Positions 23,102-28,586 are shown, numbered from the stretch's first letter. The stretch is 64,000 nucleotides of DNA from an uncultured bacterium (GCA_903906305.1 CAIVJR010000009.1:36687-100686), one strand, 5' to 3'. A program made the numbers and translations. The notes: generated by a model from the sequence alone, not told the origin.

Positions 23102-24181
23102 TTATGCTATTTCATCAAGGAAAACATCTCCTTCTGATGATTCTTTTGCTGAGATGTAATATGTTCCTCTTCCTTGTCCTTTGGCTTTGATATATCCCTT
23201 TTCCACCATGTCCTGAAGGTCTCTGTATGAGGTCATGAATGATATCCCCATCATCTTAGTATATTTGTTCCTTGCTACCTTAAAGTTTACTGCAAGGTAA
23301 TCCAACAGTTTTATCTGTCTTGGATTGAGTAATACCTCTATAGCTCCTTGGTTTCTTACCTTTTTGATATGTGTTTCTTTGTATTCCTTTGAGACTTCAA
23401 TTGCACAGTATGACATTGCATACAGGAATGCTTCCAAGAACATTGTCAGATCGTGTTTACCTTTGGAGAGTTTGAATGCTGATGTTAGATCTTCACCAAT
23501 GTATTCTAATGCTTTGGCATATGGGAATATGTTGTCTGGGTTGTAACCATAGTTCTTTGCCAATATTTCTAATGTTAGGATTGCGGTCATCTGATTTCCT
23601 GCTAGGAATGGTGCTTTGTCTATGAACTCGTAGAGTAATATCCCCAGCTTTATGAGGAAGTGGTTGTGATCTTTTCCATTTTTAACCCATTCAAATACGT
23701 CATTGAAGTAGTCATGTGGATCTACATTTGGGTAGAAGTCTCTGAATTTGTACCATGTGTCATATATTTCGTTTGGTTTTTCACTAAATCCTCTTAGTTT
23801 GGCTAAATCCCAATCATCAGCAATATTCTTCATCAATATCTTGTTGATGTGTGTACTTAACTCTATGGATGGTTTTAATGCGTTAGTTAATCCATATGAG
23901 TTTATGAAGTCTTTTACGTTTCTGAAGTTTGTGAATATTTTAAGATTTTTTCTTTGTGATGGTTGTTCTTGTCCTCTTTGTATTTGTAATGCTTTGTTGT
24001 AACCTACTGGATATCCAATTATCTCTCCAAGTTTTTCTGTGTCTTCTGCATCATATTTCTCATGTAGTACTGATTTGTATTTTTCTGGTAATGGGTAGTG
24101 ATTTATATCTGCTACAGCTAACTCATATTTGATGAGGTAATTGAGTATGAGGCTTGTTATTGTGTATTGTGGTGTTTTCAT
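23102..24181 (-). CDS. Fic/Doc-family-like protein with a degenerate Fic motif and C-terminal winged helix (the track ORF extends to 24259 through a TTG start across tRNA-Thr; trimmed to the first ATG)
   Basis: APFLAGNQMTAI occupies the position of HPFx[DE]GNGRxxR, so the catalytic His and the Gly-Arg are replaced; C-terminal HTH-like segment (YTKMMGISFMTSYRDLQDMVEKGYI). Confidence 0.45.
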   Translation of the reverse strand: MKTPQYTITSLILNYLIKYELAVADINHYPLPEKYKSVLHEKYDAEDTEKLGEIIGYPVGYNKALQIQRGQEQPSQRKNLKIFTNFRNVKDFINSYGLTNALKPSIELSTHINKILMKNIADDWDLAKLRGFSEKPNEIYDTWYKFRDFYPNVDPHDYFNDVFEWVKNGKDHNHFLIKLGILLYEFIDKAPFLAGNQMTAILTLEILAKNYGYNPDNIFPYAKALEYIGEDLTSAFKLSKGKHDLTMFLEAFLYAMSYCAIEVSKEYKETHIKKVRNQGAIEVLLNPRQIKLLDYLAVNFKVARNKYTKMMGISFMTSYRDLQDMVEKGYIKAKGQGRGTYYISAKESSEGDVFLDEIA

Positions 24182-24201
24182 TTGTTTATATATATTTAAC
24201 A

Positions 24202-24274
24202 AGCTAATGGGTGGCCTCGAACCACCGACCTTTCCCTTACGAAGGGATTGCTCTACCAACTGAGCTACATCAGC
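24202..24274 (-). tRNA. tRNA-Thr(CGT), CCA not encoded
   Basis: Reverse complement GCTGATGTAGCTCAGTTGGTAGAGCAATCCCTTCGTAAGGGAAAGGTCGGTGGTTCGAGGCCACCCATTAGCT; anticodon loop TTCGTAA. Confidence 0.75.
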
Positions 24275-24404
24275 TTAATGTAACGATATTGTAACAAAGA
24301 GGGGGAGGGAAAACAAATTGAAAAGTGACTATAGGGTTGGTATAATCTTAACGGATTAAAAGCCGTGGGCTTTTAGCAAAATTGTTCTTTAGAAGGGAGC
24401 GGGA

Positions 24405-24800
24405 ATGGAAGAAATTCGCAAGACGATTAAAATTGCTTCGCCTGTTACAGGGCAACAAATTCTTGAAGCAATTGAAAATATTGCTAAAAGAAAACTGGCA
24501 ACATTGATCAAGCGCAAAACGATTCTCATAGACGAAAAACAGGGCTATACTGTTGGTCTTGAATTTTTGCCTGCAGATTATGTGATGTGGCTTGTGATTG
24601 GGCATGGTCCCGTTGCGGATCGAACTTTGTTTCTGGAGGAATCATATTCTAAACTTTTTCTGCGTACGGAAAAGAACTTAGAATACAGACCATCGGATGA
24701 AGTCTATCAGCAACGATTTGGGATTGCTCAGGAATCAATCCAGGGCTTAATGACCAAATTTGTTGGAGAATTGGAGAAACTTCTTCTTCCAAAACCCTAA
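24405..24800 (+). CDS. Hypothetical protein (131 aa) with a strong Shine-Dalgarno site; part of the compositional island
   Basis: GGGAG 6 nt upstream of the ATG; GC-richer codon usage than the flanks; followed by a clean intrinsic terminator. Confidence 0.45.
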   Translation: MEEIRKTIKIASPVTGQQILEAIENIAKRKLATLIKRKTILIDEKQGYTVGLEFLPADYVMWLVIGHGPVADRTLFLEESYSKLFLRTEKNLEYRPSDEVYQQRFGIAQESIQGLMTKFVGELEKLLLPKP

Positions 24801-24807
24801 AGAACAA

Positions 24808-24848
24808 AACGGCCTGCTGGCACAACCAAGTGCCAGTGGCCGTTTTTT
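24808..24848. terminator. Bidirectional rho-independent terminator (ACGGCC-TG-CTGGCAC / loop AACCAA / GTGCCAG-T-GGCCGT, then T6; A/T runs on both sides)
   Basis: Perfect 7+6 bp interrupted stem read directly; 8 nt after the 24405..24800 stop and 8 nt after the convergent DUF1048 gene stop. Confidence 0.7.
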
Positions 24849-24855
24849 CTTATAC

Positions 24856-25197
24856 CTACTTCCCTAACTTCTTCATAATATCGTTGTTAAGTTTGTTCTT
24901 CCAAGACTCAGTAGCATGGAAAAGCTCATCACAAAATGCAGCAACATCCTTACCCGTAACATCAAGTACATTCTTGTTGTTCTTAACACCCTCTTCGAAT
25001 AGTCCAAGAAGATCTTCTAAGGTACTAAAGTCTCCCATATCATTCTCTGCTTCAAATCTCCATAGATTCCACATATAGTTTTTAATTTCTTCATATACTA
25101 TTTGGTAGTCCTTAGGCATTGCTTTAGCCCTTACCTCTAATTTCTTCCATTCCTTTTTCTGTTCCCAACCGGTTATCTTTATTAAAAAGTTTTTCAT
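24856..25197 (-). CDS. DUF1048-family protein (the usual partner of PadR regulators)
   Basis: 113 aa, N-terminal MKNFLIKITGWEQKKEWKKLE... typical of DUF1048; 4 nt downstream of PadR on the same strand. Confidence 0.55.
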   Translation of the reverse strand: MKNFLIKITGWEQKKEWKKLEVRAKAMPKDYQIVYEEIKNYMWNLWRFEAENDMGDFSTLEDLLGLFEEGVKNNKNVLDVTGKDVAAFCDELFHATESWKNKLNNDIMKKLGK

Positions 25198-25201
25198 TAT
25201 G

Positions 25202-25501
25202 TTATTTCTTTAATTTATTTATTTTTGATTCTACAAAGTTCCATCTATCCCAGAAGAGTTGTAATTGAATACGTCCAGCATCATTAAGGCTGTAAAACTT
25301 TCTTGCTGGTCCCATATCTGATGGTCTTTTGGTTATATCTACTAAATTATTTTTTTCTAACCTAAGTAAAATGGTATATACAGTTCCTTCAACTACATCT
25401 GTAAAACCAAGTTCATTTAGTTTGTTGGTTATTTCATATCCATAGGTTTCTCCTTGGCTTATGATTTTTAATACACAGCCTTCGAGTACACCTTTTAGCA
25501 T
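25202..25501 (-). CDS. PadR-family transcriptional regulator
   Basis: Winged-helix GETYGYEI...EGTVYTILLRLEKNNLV, the classic PadR signature; 99 aa. Confidence 0.85.
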   Translation of the reverse strand: MLKGVLEGCVLKIISQGETYGYEITNKLNELGFTDVVEGTVYTILLRLEKNNLVDITKRPSDMGPARKFYSLNDAGRIQLQLFWDRWNFVESKINKLKK

Positions 25502-25549
25502 TTCTGTTAAGTTTTCCGTAATATTCCTCCGTTTAAATTTAGTACTTCG

Positions 25550-25563
25550 TAATACGTATTACA
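25550..25563. promoter_or_regulatory. Perfect 14-bp palindrome GTAATACGTATTAC about 50 nt upstream of PadR; candidate autoregulatory operator
   Basis: Read directly from the sequence; PadR regulators bind dyad-symmetric operators in their own promoters. Confidence 0.3.
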
Positions 25564-25705
25564 GGTATATAGTAGTACGTAGTAGCGAGAATGTCAAGAA
25601 GATGAAAATGGGGGGATAACTTTATAGGGATTTTGTATTTGTTACCGTCCTTGTGGTTTGTTTAAGCTTTCGCTTATTAACCACAAGGACACTTGCTGAA
25701 CTCAA

Positions 25706-26437
25706 CTAATTTCTAGTATCAGATTTTGGACGAAATGCATGCGGAATTGCTTCATTAACAAAAAGGAATCTTTTGGGTTTTCGGCAGGCTAAGGCGCTTT
25801 TTTGTTTGGAATTATCGGGATTCGTAATGCTTTTTACTTTGAATGAACCTGTATCGTATTCAACCTTTCTGGCGTAGCAAGAGGTTTTATTTGGATCTCT
25901 ATATAAAATATATACCTTTTTATCTTCGTACATGATCCATAAAAATCCTGAAACTCCAGAGTCTTCAATCTTTGGGAGGTTGTTTAATAACCGTTCTTTT
26001 TCTTCATACTTTATTAACCAACCTTCCGTTACTTGTCCGCCTTGGTCATTAACTATTGCTAATTCACTTCGGAAAAGAACAACACTATCAAATTTTCCTG
26101 GAACTCGGATTGGTTTTGTTTTTTCTCGAATCAATGCCGCAACTAGTTTTGGATACTTGAGTGCATGGCCAATATGAGGTTGTTCTGATCCATGGTCAAA
26201 CTTGTTCTCGCGAATATAAAACAAAGCTTTTGCTGTTTTAAAACGGGGATTGTAATTTTTGAGGATTACAAAACAATTTGCGCTGAAAATAAGAATCTTA
26301 CCTTTAGGGTCGTTTTCAACGGTTGCCATCCCATCTACAGAGGGGAAGTATGAATCTGTTAAAATCAGCTCCTCTCCTCCTCCAATCTCGTACAAAATGA
26401 TTGATGAATCGAATCTATCTTTCTGTATCAGTCTCAT
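25706..26437 (-). CDS. Hypothetical protein (about 243 aa); the track ORF extends to 26464, but an internal ATG at 26437 is preceded by AAGGAG; part of the compositional island
   Basis: Strong SD AAGGAG with a 6-nt spacer; GC-richer than the flanks; no recognisable motif. Confidence 0.45.
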   Translation of the reverse strand: MRLIQKDRFDSSIILYEIGGGEELILTDSYFPSVDGMATVENDPKGKILIFSANCFVILKNYNPRFKTAKALFYIRENKFDHGSEQPHIGHALKYPKLVAALIREKTKPIRVPGKFDSVVLFRSELAIVNDQGGQVTEGWLIKYEEKERLLNNLPKIEDSGVSGFLWIMYEDKKVYILYRDPNKTSCYARKVEYDTGSFKVKSITNPDNSKQKSALACRKPKRFLFVNEAIPHAFRPKSDTRN

Positions 26438-26639
26438 ATGAAGCTCCTTTTGCTTAGTACTCACTCATTGTTTTGCTATGAATGGCTATATACTAACTAA
26501 TATATATAATTAGCATAGGGCCATCCACAGCTACTAGAAATTGTTAAAGATCTTAAGCTATTAAAAATATATAGATATTACGAAATAGCTATTCAGCATA
26601 AGGATTATATCACCGTAAGAAGGAAATAACTATGGGGTG

Positions 26640-26715
26640 TGGAGCGAGAGACGAGATTCGAACTCGCGACATTCTCCTTGGGAAGGAGACATTCTACCAA
26701 CTGAATTACTCTCGC
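26640..26715 (-). tRNA. tRNA-Gly(CCC), CCA encoded
   Basis: Reverse complement GCGAGAGTAATTCAGTTGGTAGAATGTCTCCTTCCCAAGGAGAATGTCGCGAGTTCGAATCTCGTCTCTCGCTCCA; anticodon loop TTCCCAA. Confidence 0.75.
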
Positions 26716-27972: not shown

Positions 27973-28022
27973 TATTATGGGACGAGATAATATTTAGTAT
28001 CCTTATTTTATAAATAACTTTT

Positions 28023-28526
28023 ATGAAACAAAATGACCCACAAGAGTCAGAGGTTTTTTCAGTAGAAGGTATTAAAGACCAAATATTTGATTGTATATTA
28101 ACTTGTGAGGTAGATGCATCATATTCTCATGACGGAAGTGATGATCTAGGTCGTTGGAGTGAAGTAAACAAAGTAATTGCAAATAGTTTGCACGAAATGA
28201 AAGCTATACCAAGTGAAAATGATATTTTGCCCGAAAGATCTCAATTGGTAGTTTGTAGATATGAAGAAGAAAATCCAATGTGGGGAGGGATATTTTTTAC
28301 AAGTAAAAGACATAAAAAAAATCTATTAGATGCTCTTCCAAATAGCTCTAGAGAGAAGTGTTCTGATAGACCATATTTTGGAGTTGTTGCTTTTAAAGAT
28401 GGGGTTGTACTCTTTTGTAGGTCATATGGAGGAGAAATGATAACTCCATCATTTGTACAAATAGAAGAGATAAACAAAAAACAGTTGAAATTTGTTAATA
28501 CATTGATTAATGCTTGGCTTGAATAA
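28023..28526 (+). CDS. Hypothetical protein (167 aa)
   Basis: ORF only; several Cys; no motif recognised. Confidence 0.4.
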   Translation: MKQNDPQESEVFSVEGIKDQIFDCILTCEVDASYSHDGSDDLGRWSEVNKVIANSLHEMKAIPSENDILPERSQLVVCRYEEENPMWGGIFFTSKRHKKNLLDALPNSSREKCSDRPYFGVVAFKDGVVLFCRSYGGEMITPSFVQIEEINKKQLKFVNTLINAWLE

Positions 28527-28586
28527 AAGCTTGTAAATATCGTATAAGCAATATATAATTCTTCCTATTCATGTATTTATATACAT

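What the first reader, a model, noticed from the sequence alone, without database searches (positions are those of the whole stretch)
24275..26639. Foreign-looking compositional island between tRNA-Thr and tRNA-Gly(CCC) with a PadR-DUF1048 module
About 2.3 kb between two minus-strand tRNAs is visibly GC-richer than its flanks. Its genes carry strong Shine-Dalgarno sites (GGGAG before the 24405 ATG; AAGGAG before the 26437 ATG), whereas most native genes in this window lack an SD. It holds a PadR regulator plus its typical DUF1048 partner, a sharply defined bidirectional GC-rich terminator (24808..24848) and two unknown proteins (131 aa and about 243 aa). The island abuts the 3' end of tRNA-Gly(CCC), which is a classic integration site. 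No integrase or obvious att repeat remains, so this could be an eroded integrated element.
Basis: partly seen in the sequence, partly recalled or inferred. Interest (0 to 1): 0.6.

Follow-up and report, generated by a model that had tools for sequence, protein, structure and literature searches.

The report
Hypervariable cassette locus between two tRNAs
The 2.4 kb between two tRNA genes of this uncultured Dojkabacteria (CPR) genome is not foreign DNA but a home-grown gene-swapping hotspot: a conserved PadR-DUF1048 regulator pair is flanked by two slots where closely related strains carry unrelated or extremely divergent genes, one slot using the same promoter/terminator frame each time.

Summary
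Most sequence observations hold: both tRNAs, PadR, DUF1048, the bidirectional terminator, two unknown ORFs, and strong SD sites in a genome that otherwise lacks them. The compositional claim does not. Interval GC is 0.360 against 0.355 for the window; only the left 580 bp is GC-richer.

In 26 Dojkabacteria loci the flanks (RNase HII, tRNA-Lys, YtxH, tRNA-Gly, X, tRNA-Thr, Fic-like, gatB) are syntenic. X ranges from 32 to 2365 bp with different cargo, and four species have it empty. So this is a real variable insert.

It is not foreign. All four genes have their nearest relatives in Dojkabacteria, at this same locus. There is no integrase, no att repeat and no phage signal. PadR-DUF1048 diverges in step with its flanks, which fits vertical descent.

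Two slots turn over:
- ORF131 is one of a family of roughly 120-155 aa ORFs. Each sits in a conserved frame of promoter, 5'UTR hairpin, SD and terminator, in arrays of one to four.
- ORF243 has alleles only 23-30% identical in genomes whose gatB is 94-97% identical.

Best reading: a lineage-specific flexible locus maintained by recombination in conserved flanks. Cargo function is unknown.

The parts
24201..24275 (-). tRNA-Thr(CGT), the conserved left anchor of the variable interval.
   Evidence: ARAGORN and Rfam tRNA at 61.9 bits. It is present next to the Fic-like gene and gatB in 24 of the 27 related loci scanned for tRNAs whose sequence reaches this side; L010, L012 and L027 carry the flanking gene but no tRNA-Thr call.
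24318..24346 (+). Cassette promoter: TTGAAA, 17 nt, TATAAT, with TG (extended -10). The spacer carries the motif CTATAGGGTTGG.
   Evidence: It matches 11 of 12 consensus positions in the promoter scan. The pattern occurs once in the 64-kb window. It recurs upstream of most of the 14 cassettes in relatives; 12 of 14 match the spacer motif. Homology with L094, L087 and L089 runs from tRNA-Thr exactly to 24346.
24356..24376 (+). Conserved 5'UTR hairpin (UAAAAGCC-GUG-GGCUUUUAG).
   Evidence: Predicted by folding. Two sequence types keep the hairpin across the 14 cassettes: AAAAGCC/GGCUUUU and GAAAAC/GUUUUC.
24382..24392 (+). Left arm of the cassette inverted repeat, TTGTTCTTTAG, just upstream of the SD AAGGGAG (24393-24399).
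   Evidence: An 11-nt perfect inverted repeat with 24797-24807 (I19). All 14 cassettes have 7-12 nt of perfect complementarity at the same positions, including co-varying variants.
24405..24800 (+). ORF131, one member (family F3) of a fast-evolving superfamily of small ORFs held in cassette frames.
   Evidence: It has no match in Pfam, PADLOC or PHROGs. Only two homologues were found among 5.8 billion proteins, at 86% and 66%, both in the same interval. It aligns collinearly with the F4, F5 and singleton ORFs. dN/dS is 0.08-0.14, while dS (1.1-3.0) exceeds the flanks (0.4-0.9).
24797..24855 (.). Cassette 3' frame. The right inverted-repeat arm CTAAAGAACAA overlaps the stop codon and is followed by a bidirectional A-tract/hairpin/T-tract terminator shared by ORF131 and DUF1048.
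   Evidence: Stability is shown by folding. The motif AAGAACAAAACGRCC occurs once in the window. It closes every cassette in relatives and is 98-100% identical inside the L089 array.
24856..25197 (-). DUF1048 (HAAS-type, LftS-like) partner protein. Its start lies 4 nt after the PadR stop.
   Evidence: Pfam PF06304 at 1e-29. PDB sequence matches to 2hh6, 2o4t and 2o3l. Relatives at 96-81% identity in the same interval. dN/dS is 0.05-0.10.
25202..25501 (-). PadR-family winged-helix regulator of the short single-domain type. The true start may be the in-frame ATT at 25520-25522.
   Evidence: Pfam PF03551 at 3e-23. PDB 4esf at 3e-46, aligned from its residue 7. The leader is conserved.
25549..25597 (-). 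PadR promoter (-35 TTGACA at 25597-25592, -10 TACTAT at 25574-25569) and a perfect 14-bp palindrome GTAATACGTATTAC (25549-25562) just downstream. The palindrome is a candidate auto-operator.
   Evidence: Promoter scan. The palindrome occurs once without mismatch in the window. Promoter and an imperfect palindrome are conserved in 7 loci. Operator function is inferred, not shown.
25610..26639 (-). ORF243 unit, filling the slot next to the tRNA-Gly 3' end. It comprises an upstream region with a -10-like TGATATAAT (complement of 26604-26612) and the motif ACTATGGGGT (26629-26638), the SD AAGGAG, ORF243 (25706-26437), and a 12-bp perfect hairpin (25647-25690).
   Evidence: It has no DNA homology to any fetched locus between 25610 and 26639; homology resumes exactly at 26640. 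Relatives have 146-159 nt there (no gene) or an AAA-kinase-like gene. The hairpin folds at -26.1 kcal/mol, z -5.7.
26640..26715 (-). tRNA-Gly(CCC), the conserved right anchor of the variable interval.
   Evidence: ARAGORN and Rfam at 67.7 bits. It is conserved next to YtxH in relatives.

Best explanation
The interval is a lineage-specific flexible locus of Dojkabacteria, anchored by tRNA-Gly(CCC) and tRNA-Thr(CGT). It is built from three modules that vary independently.

(1) Core module, present in some lineages: an autoregulated PadR-DUF1048 operon.
- PadR most likely represses its own promoter through the palindrome GTAATACGTATTAC, which overlaps the transcription start.
- DUF1048 most likely acts as the signal-transducing partner, as proposed for LftR/LftS and for HAAS-PadR dyads.
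- This module is inherited vertically under purifying selection and has been lost repeatedly.

(2) Slot A, next to tRNA-Thr: one to four autonomous, moron-like expression cassettes.
- Each has a near-consensus extended -10 promoter, a 5'UTR hairpin, a strong SD, an ORF of roughly 120-155 aa from one hyperdivergent superfamily, and a strong bidirectional terminator.
- The non-coding frame is conserved or homogenised, while the ORFs are replaced.

(3) Slot C, next to the tRNA-Gly 3' end: it holds an ORF243-family gene, an AAA-kinase-like gene, or nothing.

Turnover is most simply explained by homologous recombination. This would include unequal crossing-over within arrays and exchange between diverged Dojkabacteria, using the conserved tRNAs and the repeated promoter and terminator frames as crossover sites. 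No integrase would be needed.

Shown: the anatomy, the synteny, the distribution and the divergence patterns.
Inferred: the recombination mechanism, PadR auto-repression, and any role of the cargo.

My best guess for the cargo (about 0.3) is strain-specific conflict or immunity-type proteins kept diverse by frequency-dependent selection.
For: Synteny
- The order RNase HII, tRNA-Lys, YtxH, tRNA-Gly, X, tRNA-Thr, Fic-like, gatB is conserved. X measures 32-2365 bp across 26 loci.
- A gatB+Fic tree shows the content is patchy even between sisters: L007 is empty while L127 carries four genes.

Lineage-internal origin
- DUF1048's nearest relatives are Dojkabacteria and Patescibacteria.
- They lie in the same interval.
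- ORF131 relatives are all in this interval.
- ORF243 relatives P0005, P0006, P0008 and P0015 are also in this interval.

Vertical descent of the core module
- PadR and DUF1048 have dS 0.37-0.83 against 0.33-0.93 for the flanks, with dN/dS 0.05-0.15.
- Third-codon-position identity between L094 and L096 is 0.60-0.63 for the module against 0.52-0.61 for core genes.

Replacement of slot genes
- ORF131 alleles have dS 1.1-3.0, two to four times the flanks, with dN/dS 0.08-0.14.
- ORF243 alleles are 23-30% identical in genomes whose gatB is 94-97% identical.
- blastn homology breaks at 24346/24798 and at about 25610/26640.

Cassette frame
- 14 cassettes share the same promoter, hairpin, SD and terminator layout.
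- For the 79 cassette pairs with under 30% protein identity, promoter/UTR identity is 73% and terminator identity 77%. ORF DNA identity is 60%, close to the random level of 58%.
- Terminators within the L089 array are 98-100% identical.
- The frame motifs occur once in the window and, in the metagenome scan, only at this locus.

Regulator
- The PadR promoter and palindrome are conserved in 7 loci.
- LftR/LftS is a PadR+DUF1048 operon (PMC4517056).
- The HAAS-PadR dyad model comes from bioRxiv 10.1101/2020.09.24.301986.
Against: - No recombination event is observed directly. The crossover sites are inferred from homology breakpoints between metagenome contigs from different samples.
- The 7-12 nt inverted repeat flanking every ORF and the recurring motif ACTATRGGGT are not needed by a plain homologous-recombination model. 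They could mark a site-specific process or an RNA-level function.
- PadR, DUF1048 and the AAA gene are 83-85% identical between L094 and L096, whose gatB is 71% identical. That could also reflect an old transfer.
- The synonymous sites used to argue for vertical descent are near saturation at that distance.
- The function of ORF131 and ORF243 is wholly unknown. The ORF131 model is unusable (pLDDT 52). The ORF243 model (pLDDT 91) matches no solved or viral fold.
- Contigs come from MAGs and metagenomes, so some apparently empty sites could be assembly collapses. This is unlikely, because four independent species show it.
Confidence: 0.6

Rival explanations
1. One reading: an eroded integrative element or genomic island from outside the host lineage, inserted by an integrase at the 3' end of tRNA-Gly(CCC) and since decayed.
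For: - The block abuts the tRNA-Gly 3' end.
- It is absent from several species.
- Its genes use SD sites in a genome without them.
- The ORF131 cassette is GC-richer, at the 98th percentile.
Against: - Overall GC and tetranucleotide content are unremarkable.
- There is no att repeat and no integrase in 64 kb.
- The nearest relatives of all four genes are in Dojkabacteria at the same locus.
- The core module co-diverges with its flanks.
- There are no phage or defence-family hits and no viral contigs.
Confidence: 0.05
2. Purely vertical history. An ancestral multi-gene block between the tRNAs was differentially deleted, and the remaining ORFs diverged in place very fast, with no exchange between lineages.
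For: - PadR-DUF1048 dS matches the flanks.
- The small ORFs form one superfamily, as tandem duplication would produce.
- No mobility genes are present.
Against: - In-place divergence cannot raise synonymous divergence of ORF131 alleles to two to four times that of adjacent genes, nor saturate ORF243 while gatB dS is about 0.7.
- Strains with 93-97% gatB identity carry different families in the same frame: F3, F4 and F5 in slot A, and F9 or AAA in slot C.
- Non-coding frames are far more conserved than ORFs, with terminators 98-100% identical and ORF DNA at random level. That pattern needs gene conversion or exchange.
- L127 combines an F3 ORF with the other hairpin type.
Confidence: 0.15
3. 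A dedicated site-specific cassette platform, integron-like. A recombinase encoded elsewhere would recognise the short inverted repeats (TTGTTCTTTAG / CTAAAGAACAA), the terminator hairpin, or the ACTATRGGGT motif, and insert or excise ORF units.
For: - A perfect 7-12 nt inverted repeat flanks all 14 ORFs, with co-varying variants: GTTCTTA/TAAGAAC and TCTTAAAACTTT/AAAGTTTTAAGA.
- The motif CTATRGGG is rare, with three copies in 64 kb, yet it sits at both ends of the interval.
- Arrays hold one to four cassettes.
Against: - No recombinase lies within 64 kb.
- Cassettes carry their own promoters, unlike integron cassettes.
- The inverted-repeat arms coincide with the A-tract of the terminator and a U-rich tract after the 5'UTR hairpin, so terminator design may explain them.
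- The inverted repeat is inherited along with the frame, so the 14 instances are not independent.
Confidence: 0.1

Closest known systems
LftR/LftS operon of Listeria monocytogenes (PadR-type repressor plus DUF1048 protein); HAAS-PadR dyads
   Same: The gene order is the same: PadR, then DUF1048 in one operon, here with a 4-nt gap. Both proteins are short and soluble. A palindrome at the promoter is compatible with auto-repression.
   Different: - It occurs in a CPR bacterium. The Listeria paper listed LftS homologues only in Firmicutes and a few Actinobacteria.
- No target such as the lieAB transporter is evident nearby.
- No 'GxP' tripeptide is visible in this DUF1048 sequence.
- Regulation has not been tested.
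Flexible genomic islands or hotspots next to tRNA genes (replacement and additive types described for marine bacteria; from my own knowledge)
   Same: The chromosomal position is fixed between conserved genes and tRNAs. Content differs between close strains. Highly divergent alleles occupy an orthologous slot, and cassettes vary in number.
   Different: - It is tiny (0-2.4 kb) and sits in a reduced CPR genome.
- It has no integrase.
- The additive part uses a repeated promoter/terminator frame.
Integron gene-cassette arrays
   Same: Both are tandem arrays of short, unrelated ORFs separated by conserved, hairpin-forming repeats.
   Different: - No IntI is present.
- The conserved 3' hairpin is an intrinsic terminator with A and T tracts, not an attC with R''/R' cores.
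- Every cassette has its own promoter and SD.
Phage 'morons' (autonomous promoter-gene-terminator units; from my own knowledge)
   Same: The unit anatomy is the same: own promoter, one small ORF, own terminator, inserted between unrelated genes.
   Different: It is chromosomal with no prophage context, has no PHROG hits and matches no viral contigs.

Membership tests
tRNA-targeted integrative element / genomic island | Integrase (tyrosine or serine recombinase) in or beside the island. | tested here: not met
   No recombinase or transposase Pfam domain was found in the 4 island proteins, in the precomputed annotation of the flanking 10 kb on each side, or in 30 further window ORFs.
tRNA-targeted integrative element / genomic island | Direct repeat of the tRNA 3' part (attL/attR) at the far end. 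| tested here: not met
   The longest repeats between the tRNAs and the interval are 10 nt, which is chance level.
tRNA-targeted integrative element / genomic island | Composition and nearest relatives that point outside the host lineage. | tested here: not met
   GC is at the 60th percentile and tetranucleotide distance at the 92.5th. The nearest relatives are in Dojkabacteria.
tRNA-targeted integrative element / genomic island | Present or absent at a conserved site between relatives. | tested here: met
   Empty sites of 32-84 bp occur in L007, L008, L020 and L023, and other cargo occurs elsewhere.
PadR-DUF1048 (LftRS-like / HAAS-PadR) regulatory dyad | A PadR winged-helix protein with a DUF1048 protein encoded immediately downstream on the same strand. 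| tested here: met
   PF03551 at 3e-23 and PF06304 at 1e-29, with a 4-nt intergenic gap. PDB relatives include 4esf and 2hh6.
PadR-DUF1048 (LftRS-like / HAAS-PadR) regulatory dyad | Auto-repression through a palindromic operator at its own promoter. | not testable with these tools
   A candidate exists: GTAATACGTATTAC at 25549-25562, downstream of the -10 box and conserved in 7 loci. Binding has not been tested.
PadR-DUF1048 (LftRS-like / HAAS-PadR) regulatory dyad | A kinked third helix with a conserved GxP motif in the HAAS domain. | tested here: inconclusive
   No G-x-P tripeptide appears in the 113-aa sequence. The paper linked DUF1048 to HAAS only by HHpred, and no structure was predicted here.
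Integron | An IntI integrase with attI and a common promoter Pc; cassettes without promoters. | tested here: not met
   No integrase was found. Every cassette has its own TTGAAA-N17-TATAAT promoter and SD.
Integron | attC recombination sites (imperfect palindromes with RYYYAAC / GTTRRRY cores) at cassette ends. | tested here: not met
   Cassette ends are A-tract/GC-hairpin/T-tract terminators of the form ...AAAACGRCC-loop-GGYCGTTTTTTCTT. GTT followed by TTTT does not fit GTTRRRY.
Known anti-phage defence systems / phage genes | A match to PADLOC or PHROG profiles. | tested here: not met
   The four island proteins and four cassette variants gave no PADLOC match; the only PHROG hit was PadR to a generic transcriptional regulator.

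The most novel reading that the evidence does not exclude
The conserved frames (promoter with the ACTATRGGGT spacer, 5'UTR hairpin, 10-12 nt inverted repeats bracketing SD plus ORF, and a hairpin terminator) may form a dedicated, integrase-independent or trans-served cassette-exchange platform. On this reading, ultra-small CPR bacteria use it to shuffle a hyperdivergent family of small cytoplasmic proteins, and the equally hyperdivergent ORF243 family with its unmatched fold, for host or phage conflict. The cassettes would be expressed by an SD-led translation mode distinct from the organism's mainly leaderless genes.
Probability: 0.12. Interest if true: 0.75.

Novelty: new variant of a known kind. 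Interest (0 to 1): 0.45.

Why it matters
- CPR/Patescibacteria genomes are small and streamlined, with little recognised mobile DNA. A 0-2.4 kb tRNA-anchored slot whose content differs between strains at 93-97% gatB identity shows where such genomes keep their strain-specific genes.
- It offers a compact, PCR-sized marker of strain diversity.
- It yields two unannotated protein families to test: a small-ORF superfamily, and the 245-aa ORF243 family with a confident model that matches no solved fold.
- The contrast between SD-led, long-leader cassette genes and an otherwise apparently leaderless gene set makes translation-initiation choice in CPR bacteria directly testable.
- The PadR-DUF1048 pair extends the LftRS/HAAS-PadR dyad to CPR.

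Tried and rejected
- Whole-interval GC and tetranucleotide deviation: not significant.
- att-type repeats: none.
- Integrase search across the window: none.
- Word-indexed homology search for ORF243: found only itself. The exhaustive HMMER search then found 25 distant relatives.
The 3-sequence alignment gave pLDDT 52, which is unusable.
- PADLOC and PHROGs: no informative hit.
The A3 scan and the terminator-motif scan found only chance matches.
- Rfam on the interval: only the two tRNAs.
- Recent transfer of PadR-DUF1048 between distant Dojkabacteria: it was suggested by 83-85% against 71% amino-acid identity, but synonymous positions do not support it.
- PadR operator copies upstream of ORF131 or ORF243: only a 9-mer (TTCGTAATA) upstream of ORF243, too weak to use.
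- Long-range 5'-3' pairing of the ORF131 mRNA: it appears in the centroid structure but not the minimum-energy fold, so it is inconclusive.
Full report
**1. What is in the sequence**

The window is a chromosomal stretch of an uncultured Candidatus Dojkabacteria (CPR/Patescibacteria) genome.
- Its proteins occur identically on a 141-kb JGI metagenome contig.
- The closest gatB genes in the species-genome collection are all from Dojkabacteria MAGs; some are labelled 'uncultured Saccharibacteria'.
- ARAGORN finds tRNA-Thr(cgt) at 24201-24275(-) and tRNA-Gly(ccc) at 26640-26715(-).

Between the two tRNAs lie four genes:
- ORF131, 24405-24800 (+), with no Pfam match.
- DUF1048, 24856-25197 (-), Pfam 1e-29.
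- PadR, 25202-25501 (-), Pfam 3e-23.
- ORF243, 25706-26437 (-), with no Pfam match.

The convergent ORF131 and DUF1048 share a hairpin that is a strong terminator on both strands: -32.6 kcal/mol (z -8.5) and -30.3 kcal/mol (z -4.8), each with a U-tract.

**2. Checking the compositional claim**

The interval as a whole is not GC-rich.
- GC is 0.360 against 0.355 for the window, at the 60th percentile of same-size windows.
- Its tetranucleotide distance is at the 92.5th percentile.

Only the ORF131 cassette with its flanks (24276-24855) is unusual, at GC 0.402 and the 98th percentile. PadR is actually AT-richer than average at 0.31.

**3. Checking the SD claim**

- Of 55 ORFs of at least 100 aa, 47 have no SD-like 4-mer at -18..-4. 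The 8 that do equal the background rate of 15%.
- Instead, 20 of 55 have a -10-like hexamer ending 4-14 nt before the ATG, against 5.4% background. This suggests mostly leaderless mRNAs.
- ORF243 has the only AAGGAG in the set. ORF131 has AAGGGAG behind a leader of about 58 nt. PadR has GGAGG.

**4. Synteny**

Using gatB as bait, 80 loci were fetched.
- In the Dojkabacteria among them the order RNase HII, tRNA-Lys, YtxH, tRNA-Gly(ccc), X, tRNA-Thr(cgt), Fic-like 359-aa gene, gatB is conserved.
- X measures 36-84 bp in L007, L008, L020 and L023. It is 251-1203 bp in ten other species.
- Cargo is unrelated from species to species: dCMP-deaminase-like, GNAT-like, CPBP-like, ASCH-like and unknown genes (the names are my reading of the sequences and were not tested).
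- None of the four window proteins has a tblastn hit in these 80 loci.

So the block is accessory, and the interval is a hotspot.

**5. The genes are not foreign**

DUF1048's best hits among 5.8 billion proteins form a continuous series. Dojkabacteria and Patescibacteria proteins score 96, 92, 86 and 73% and continue downward. Bacillota reach only about 42-46%.

The three best hits lie in the same interval of related genomes:
- L094 (gatB 97% to the window): tRNA-Gly, AAA-kinase-like gene, PadR, DUF1048, 121-aa ORF, tRNA-Thr.
- L096 (gatB 70%): AAA-kinase-like gene, PadR, DUF1048.
- L097: PadR, DUF1048, ParE.

A metagenome scan with the cassette terminator motif found 14 genuine matches, all at this locus.

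Divergence measures fit vertical descent of the core module:
- dS of PadR and DUF1048 against close relatives (0.37-0.83) equals that of the flanking core genes (0.33-0.93). dN/dS is 0.05-0.15.
- At larger distance, third-position identity at conserved residues is 0.60-0.63 for the module against 0.52-0.61 for core genes.
- The pair therefore behaves as a long-standing, selected resident. Its patchy distribution on a gatB+Fic tree implies repeated loss. Old exchange cannot be excluded.

No integrase, att repeat, PHROG or PADLOC match, or viral contig supports a mobile-element origin.

**6. Slot A: cassettes in a conserved frame**

ORF131 has only two detectable homologues, at 86% and 66%. Both lie between the same tRNAs on contigs whose Fic-like gene is 94% identical to the window's.
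- L087 carries two small ORFs there.
- L089 carries four.
- Neither carries PadR.

Across 14 such units the layout is the same:
1. -35 TTGAAA, 17 nt, an extended -10 TGGTATAAT, with CTATRGGGTTGG in the spacer.
2. A small 5'UTR hairpin of two sequence types that preserve pairing.
3. ATTGTTCTTTAG.
4. An SD (AGGAGG or GGGAG).
5. An ORF of roughly 120-155 aa.
6. A stop codon embedded in TAAAGAACAAAACGRCC, then hairpin, then GGYCGTTTTTTCTTTTATA.

The ORFs fall into BLAST families F3, F4 and F5 plus singletons. They align collinearly as one superfamily at 11-26% identity, with a near-invariant Tyr.

The frame is far better conserved than its contents:
- For the 79 cassette pairs with under 30% protein identity, the promoter/UTR is 73% identical and the terminator 77%.
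- Terminators inside the L089 array are 98-100% identical.
- ORF DNA identity is 60%, against a random level of 58%.

Between the window and L094 (gatB 97%), homology runs from tRNA-Thr to the -10 box (24346) and resumes at 24798. A different ORF family lies in between.

ORF131 alleles show dS of 1.1-3.0, two to four times the adjacent genes, with dN/dS of 0.08-0.14. They are functional, old allelic lineages that have been moved between backgrounds, not fast-decaying sequence.

**7. Slot C: the ORF243 unit**

The segment 25610-26639 has no DNA homologue in any fetched locus. Homology resumes exactly at the tRNA-Gly 3' end. Relatives have 146-159 nt and no gene there, or an AAA-kinase-like gene.

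An exhaustive HMMER search found 25 relatives of about 245 aa at 24-35% identity, none with an informative Pfam hit.
- Four of them (P0005, P0006, P0008, P0015) sit in the same interval.
- Their genomes have gatB 94-97% and the Fic-like gene 88-93% identical to the window's, yet they are only 23-30% identical to ORF243.
- dS is saturated while gatB dS is about 0.7.
- A more distant member lies in a different context in another genome.

**8. The PadR-DUF1048 module**

- The PadR promoter (TTGACA, 17 nt, TACTAT) is followed by a perfect 14-bp palindrome, GTAATACGTATTAC. Both are conserved, with small changes, in seven loci. I infer auto-repression.
- DUF1048 starts 4 nt after the PadR stop.
- The closest characterised system is Listeria LftR/LftS, a PadR repressor with a DUF1048 protein in one operon whose mutant phenotypes are genetically linked (PMC4517056).
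- DUF1048 has been merged into the HAAS superfamily, proposed to relay signals to its PadR partner (bioRxiv 10.1101/2020.09.24.301986).
- The PDB sequence relatives are 4esf and 6abq for PadR, and 2hh6, 2o4t and 2o3l for DUF1048.
- Nothing ties the module functionally to the neighbouring slots. Slot genes occur without it in L087, L089, L118, L124 and L150, and it occurs without them in L096.

**9. Mechanism and open points**

The simplest mechanism for turnover is homologous recombination.
- The tRNAs and the repeated frames provide tens to hundreds of bp of near-identity.
- Array sizes of one to four cassettes fit unequal crossing-over.
- The excess dS of slot alleles fits import from diverged relatives.

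Two features are not explained by this model:
- Every ORF is bracketed by a 7-12 nt perfect inverted repeat (TTGTTCTTTAG ... CTAAAGAACAA; window 24382-24392 and 24797-24807). Two variants co-vary. The arms coincide with the terminator's A-tract and a U-rich tract after the 5' hairpin, so terminator or attenuator design may account for them.
- The motif CTATRGGG is rare, with three copies in 64 kb. It occurs in the cassette promoter spacer and again within 10 nt of the tRNA-Gly end, as part of the conserved upstream region of ORF243-type units.

A site-specific process or a shared regulator therefore remains possible.

**10. Verdict**

- The 'foreign, eroded integrated element' interpretation is not supported.
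- What is there is a small, lineage-specific flexible locus with an unusual cassette frame and two hyperdivergent orphan protein families, beside an ordinary PadR-DUF1048 regulator pair.
- This is a new variant of known kinds (tRNA-linked flexible islands and moron-like or cassette arrays). It is of moderate interest, mainly for CPR genome dynamics and for the SD-versus-leaderless contrast.

Noticed in passing
whole window (55 ORFs of at least 100 aa): Core genes appear leaderless. 20 of 55 have a TAnA[AT]T hexamer ending 4-14 nt before the ATG, against 5.4% background. SD-like motifs occur only at the background rate.
   Followed up: partly
window 27973-28585 (ORF167, 28023-28526), between RNase HII and tRNA-Lys: This is a second small variable slot. 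ORF167 is 85% and 79% identical in L094 and L097, only 29% in L118 (dN/dS 0.54), and has no tblastn hit in L007 and L008, where RNase HII sits about 70 bp from tRNA-Lys in L007 and about 670 bp in L008. Some relatives carry extra genes here.
   Followed up: partly
window 23102-24181 (-): The 359-aa Fic-like protein next to tRNA-Thr matches the PADLOC SoFic model (8e-10) and weakly matches Pfam Fic. It is nevertheless conserved at this position in about 20 Dojkabacteria loci, so it behaves as a core gene rather than a defence island gene.
   Followed up: partly
window 25502-25531 (-): About 24 nt between the PadR GGAGG (complement of 25526-25530) and the annotated ATG are conserved. They read in frame as ITENLTE from an ATT codon (25520-25522). 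PDB 4esf aligns from its residue 7, so PadR may start at a non-ATG codon. L096 lacks the ATT.
   Followed up: partly
window 24329-24336 and 26630-26637; also 36561 (-); L124, L150: The motif CTAT[AG]GG[GA] occurs only three times in 64 kb on both strands. Two copies bracket the interval, one in the cassette promoter spacer and one next to the tRNA-Gly 3' end. The tRNA-proximal copy is conserved in other ORF243-type units.
   Followed up: partly
window 24276-24316: The sequence TGTAACnnTATTGTAACA directly upstream of tRNA-Thr is conserved in all the Dojkabacteria loci compared, including those with an empty site. It may hold the tRNA-Thr promoter (TACAAT is the complement of 24288-24293), placed back-to-back with the cassette promoter. 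Where the interval is empty, the two tRNAs may be co-transcribed.
   Followed up: no
L094 6979-7557 and L096 6986-7567: An AAA_18/AAA_33 kinase-like protein of 192-193 aa fills the slot next to tRNA-Gly in place of ORF243. It is 83% identical between genomes whose gatB is 71% identical. It has only weak P-loop matches to BrxF and dNMP-kinase profiles.
   Followed up: partly
L097 8388-8770: In one close relative the cassette slot beside DUF1048 holds a ParE-family toxin gene with a partial upstream ORF, which is probably its antitoxin.
   Followed up: no
L015, L016 and L018 intervals: More distant Dojkabacteria carry a dCMP-deaminase-like gene in the same tRNA-Gly/tRNA-Thr interval. It is paired with a 108-aa ORF in L015 and L016, or with a GNAT-like ORF in L018. 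The names come from reading the sequences only.
   Followed up: no
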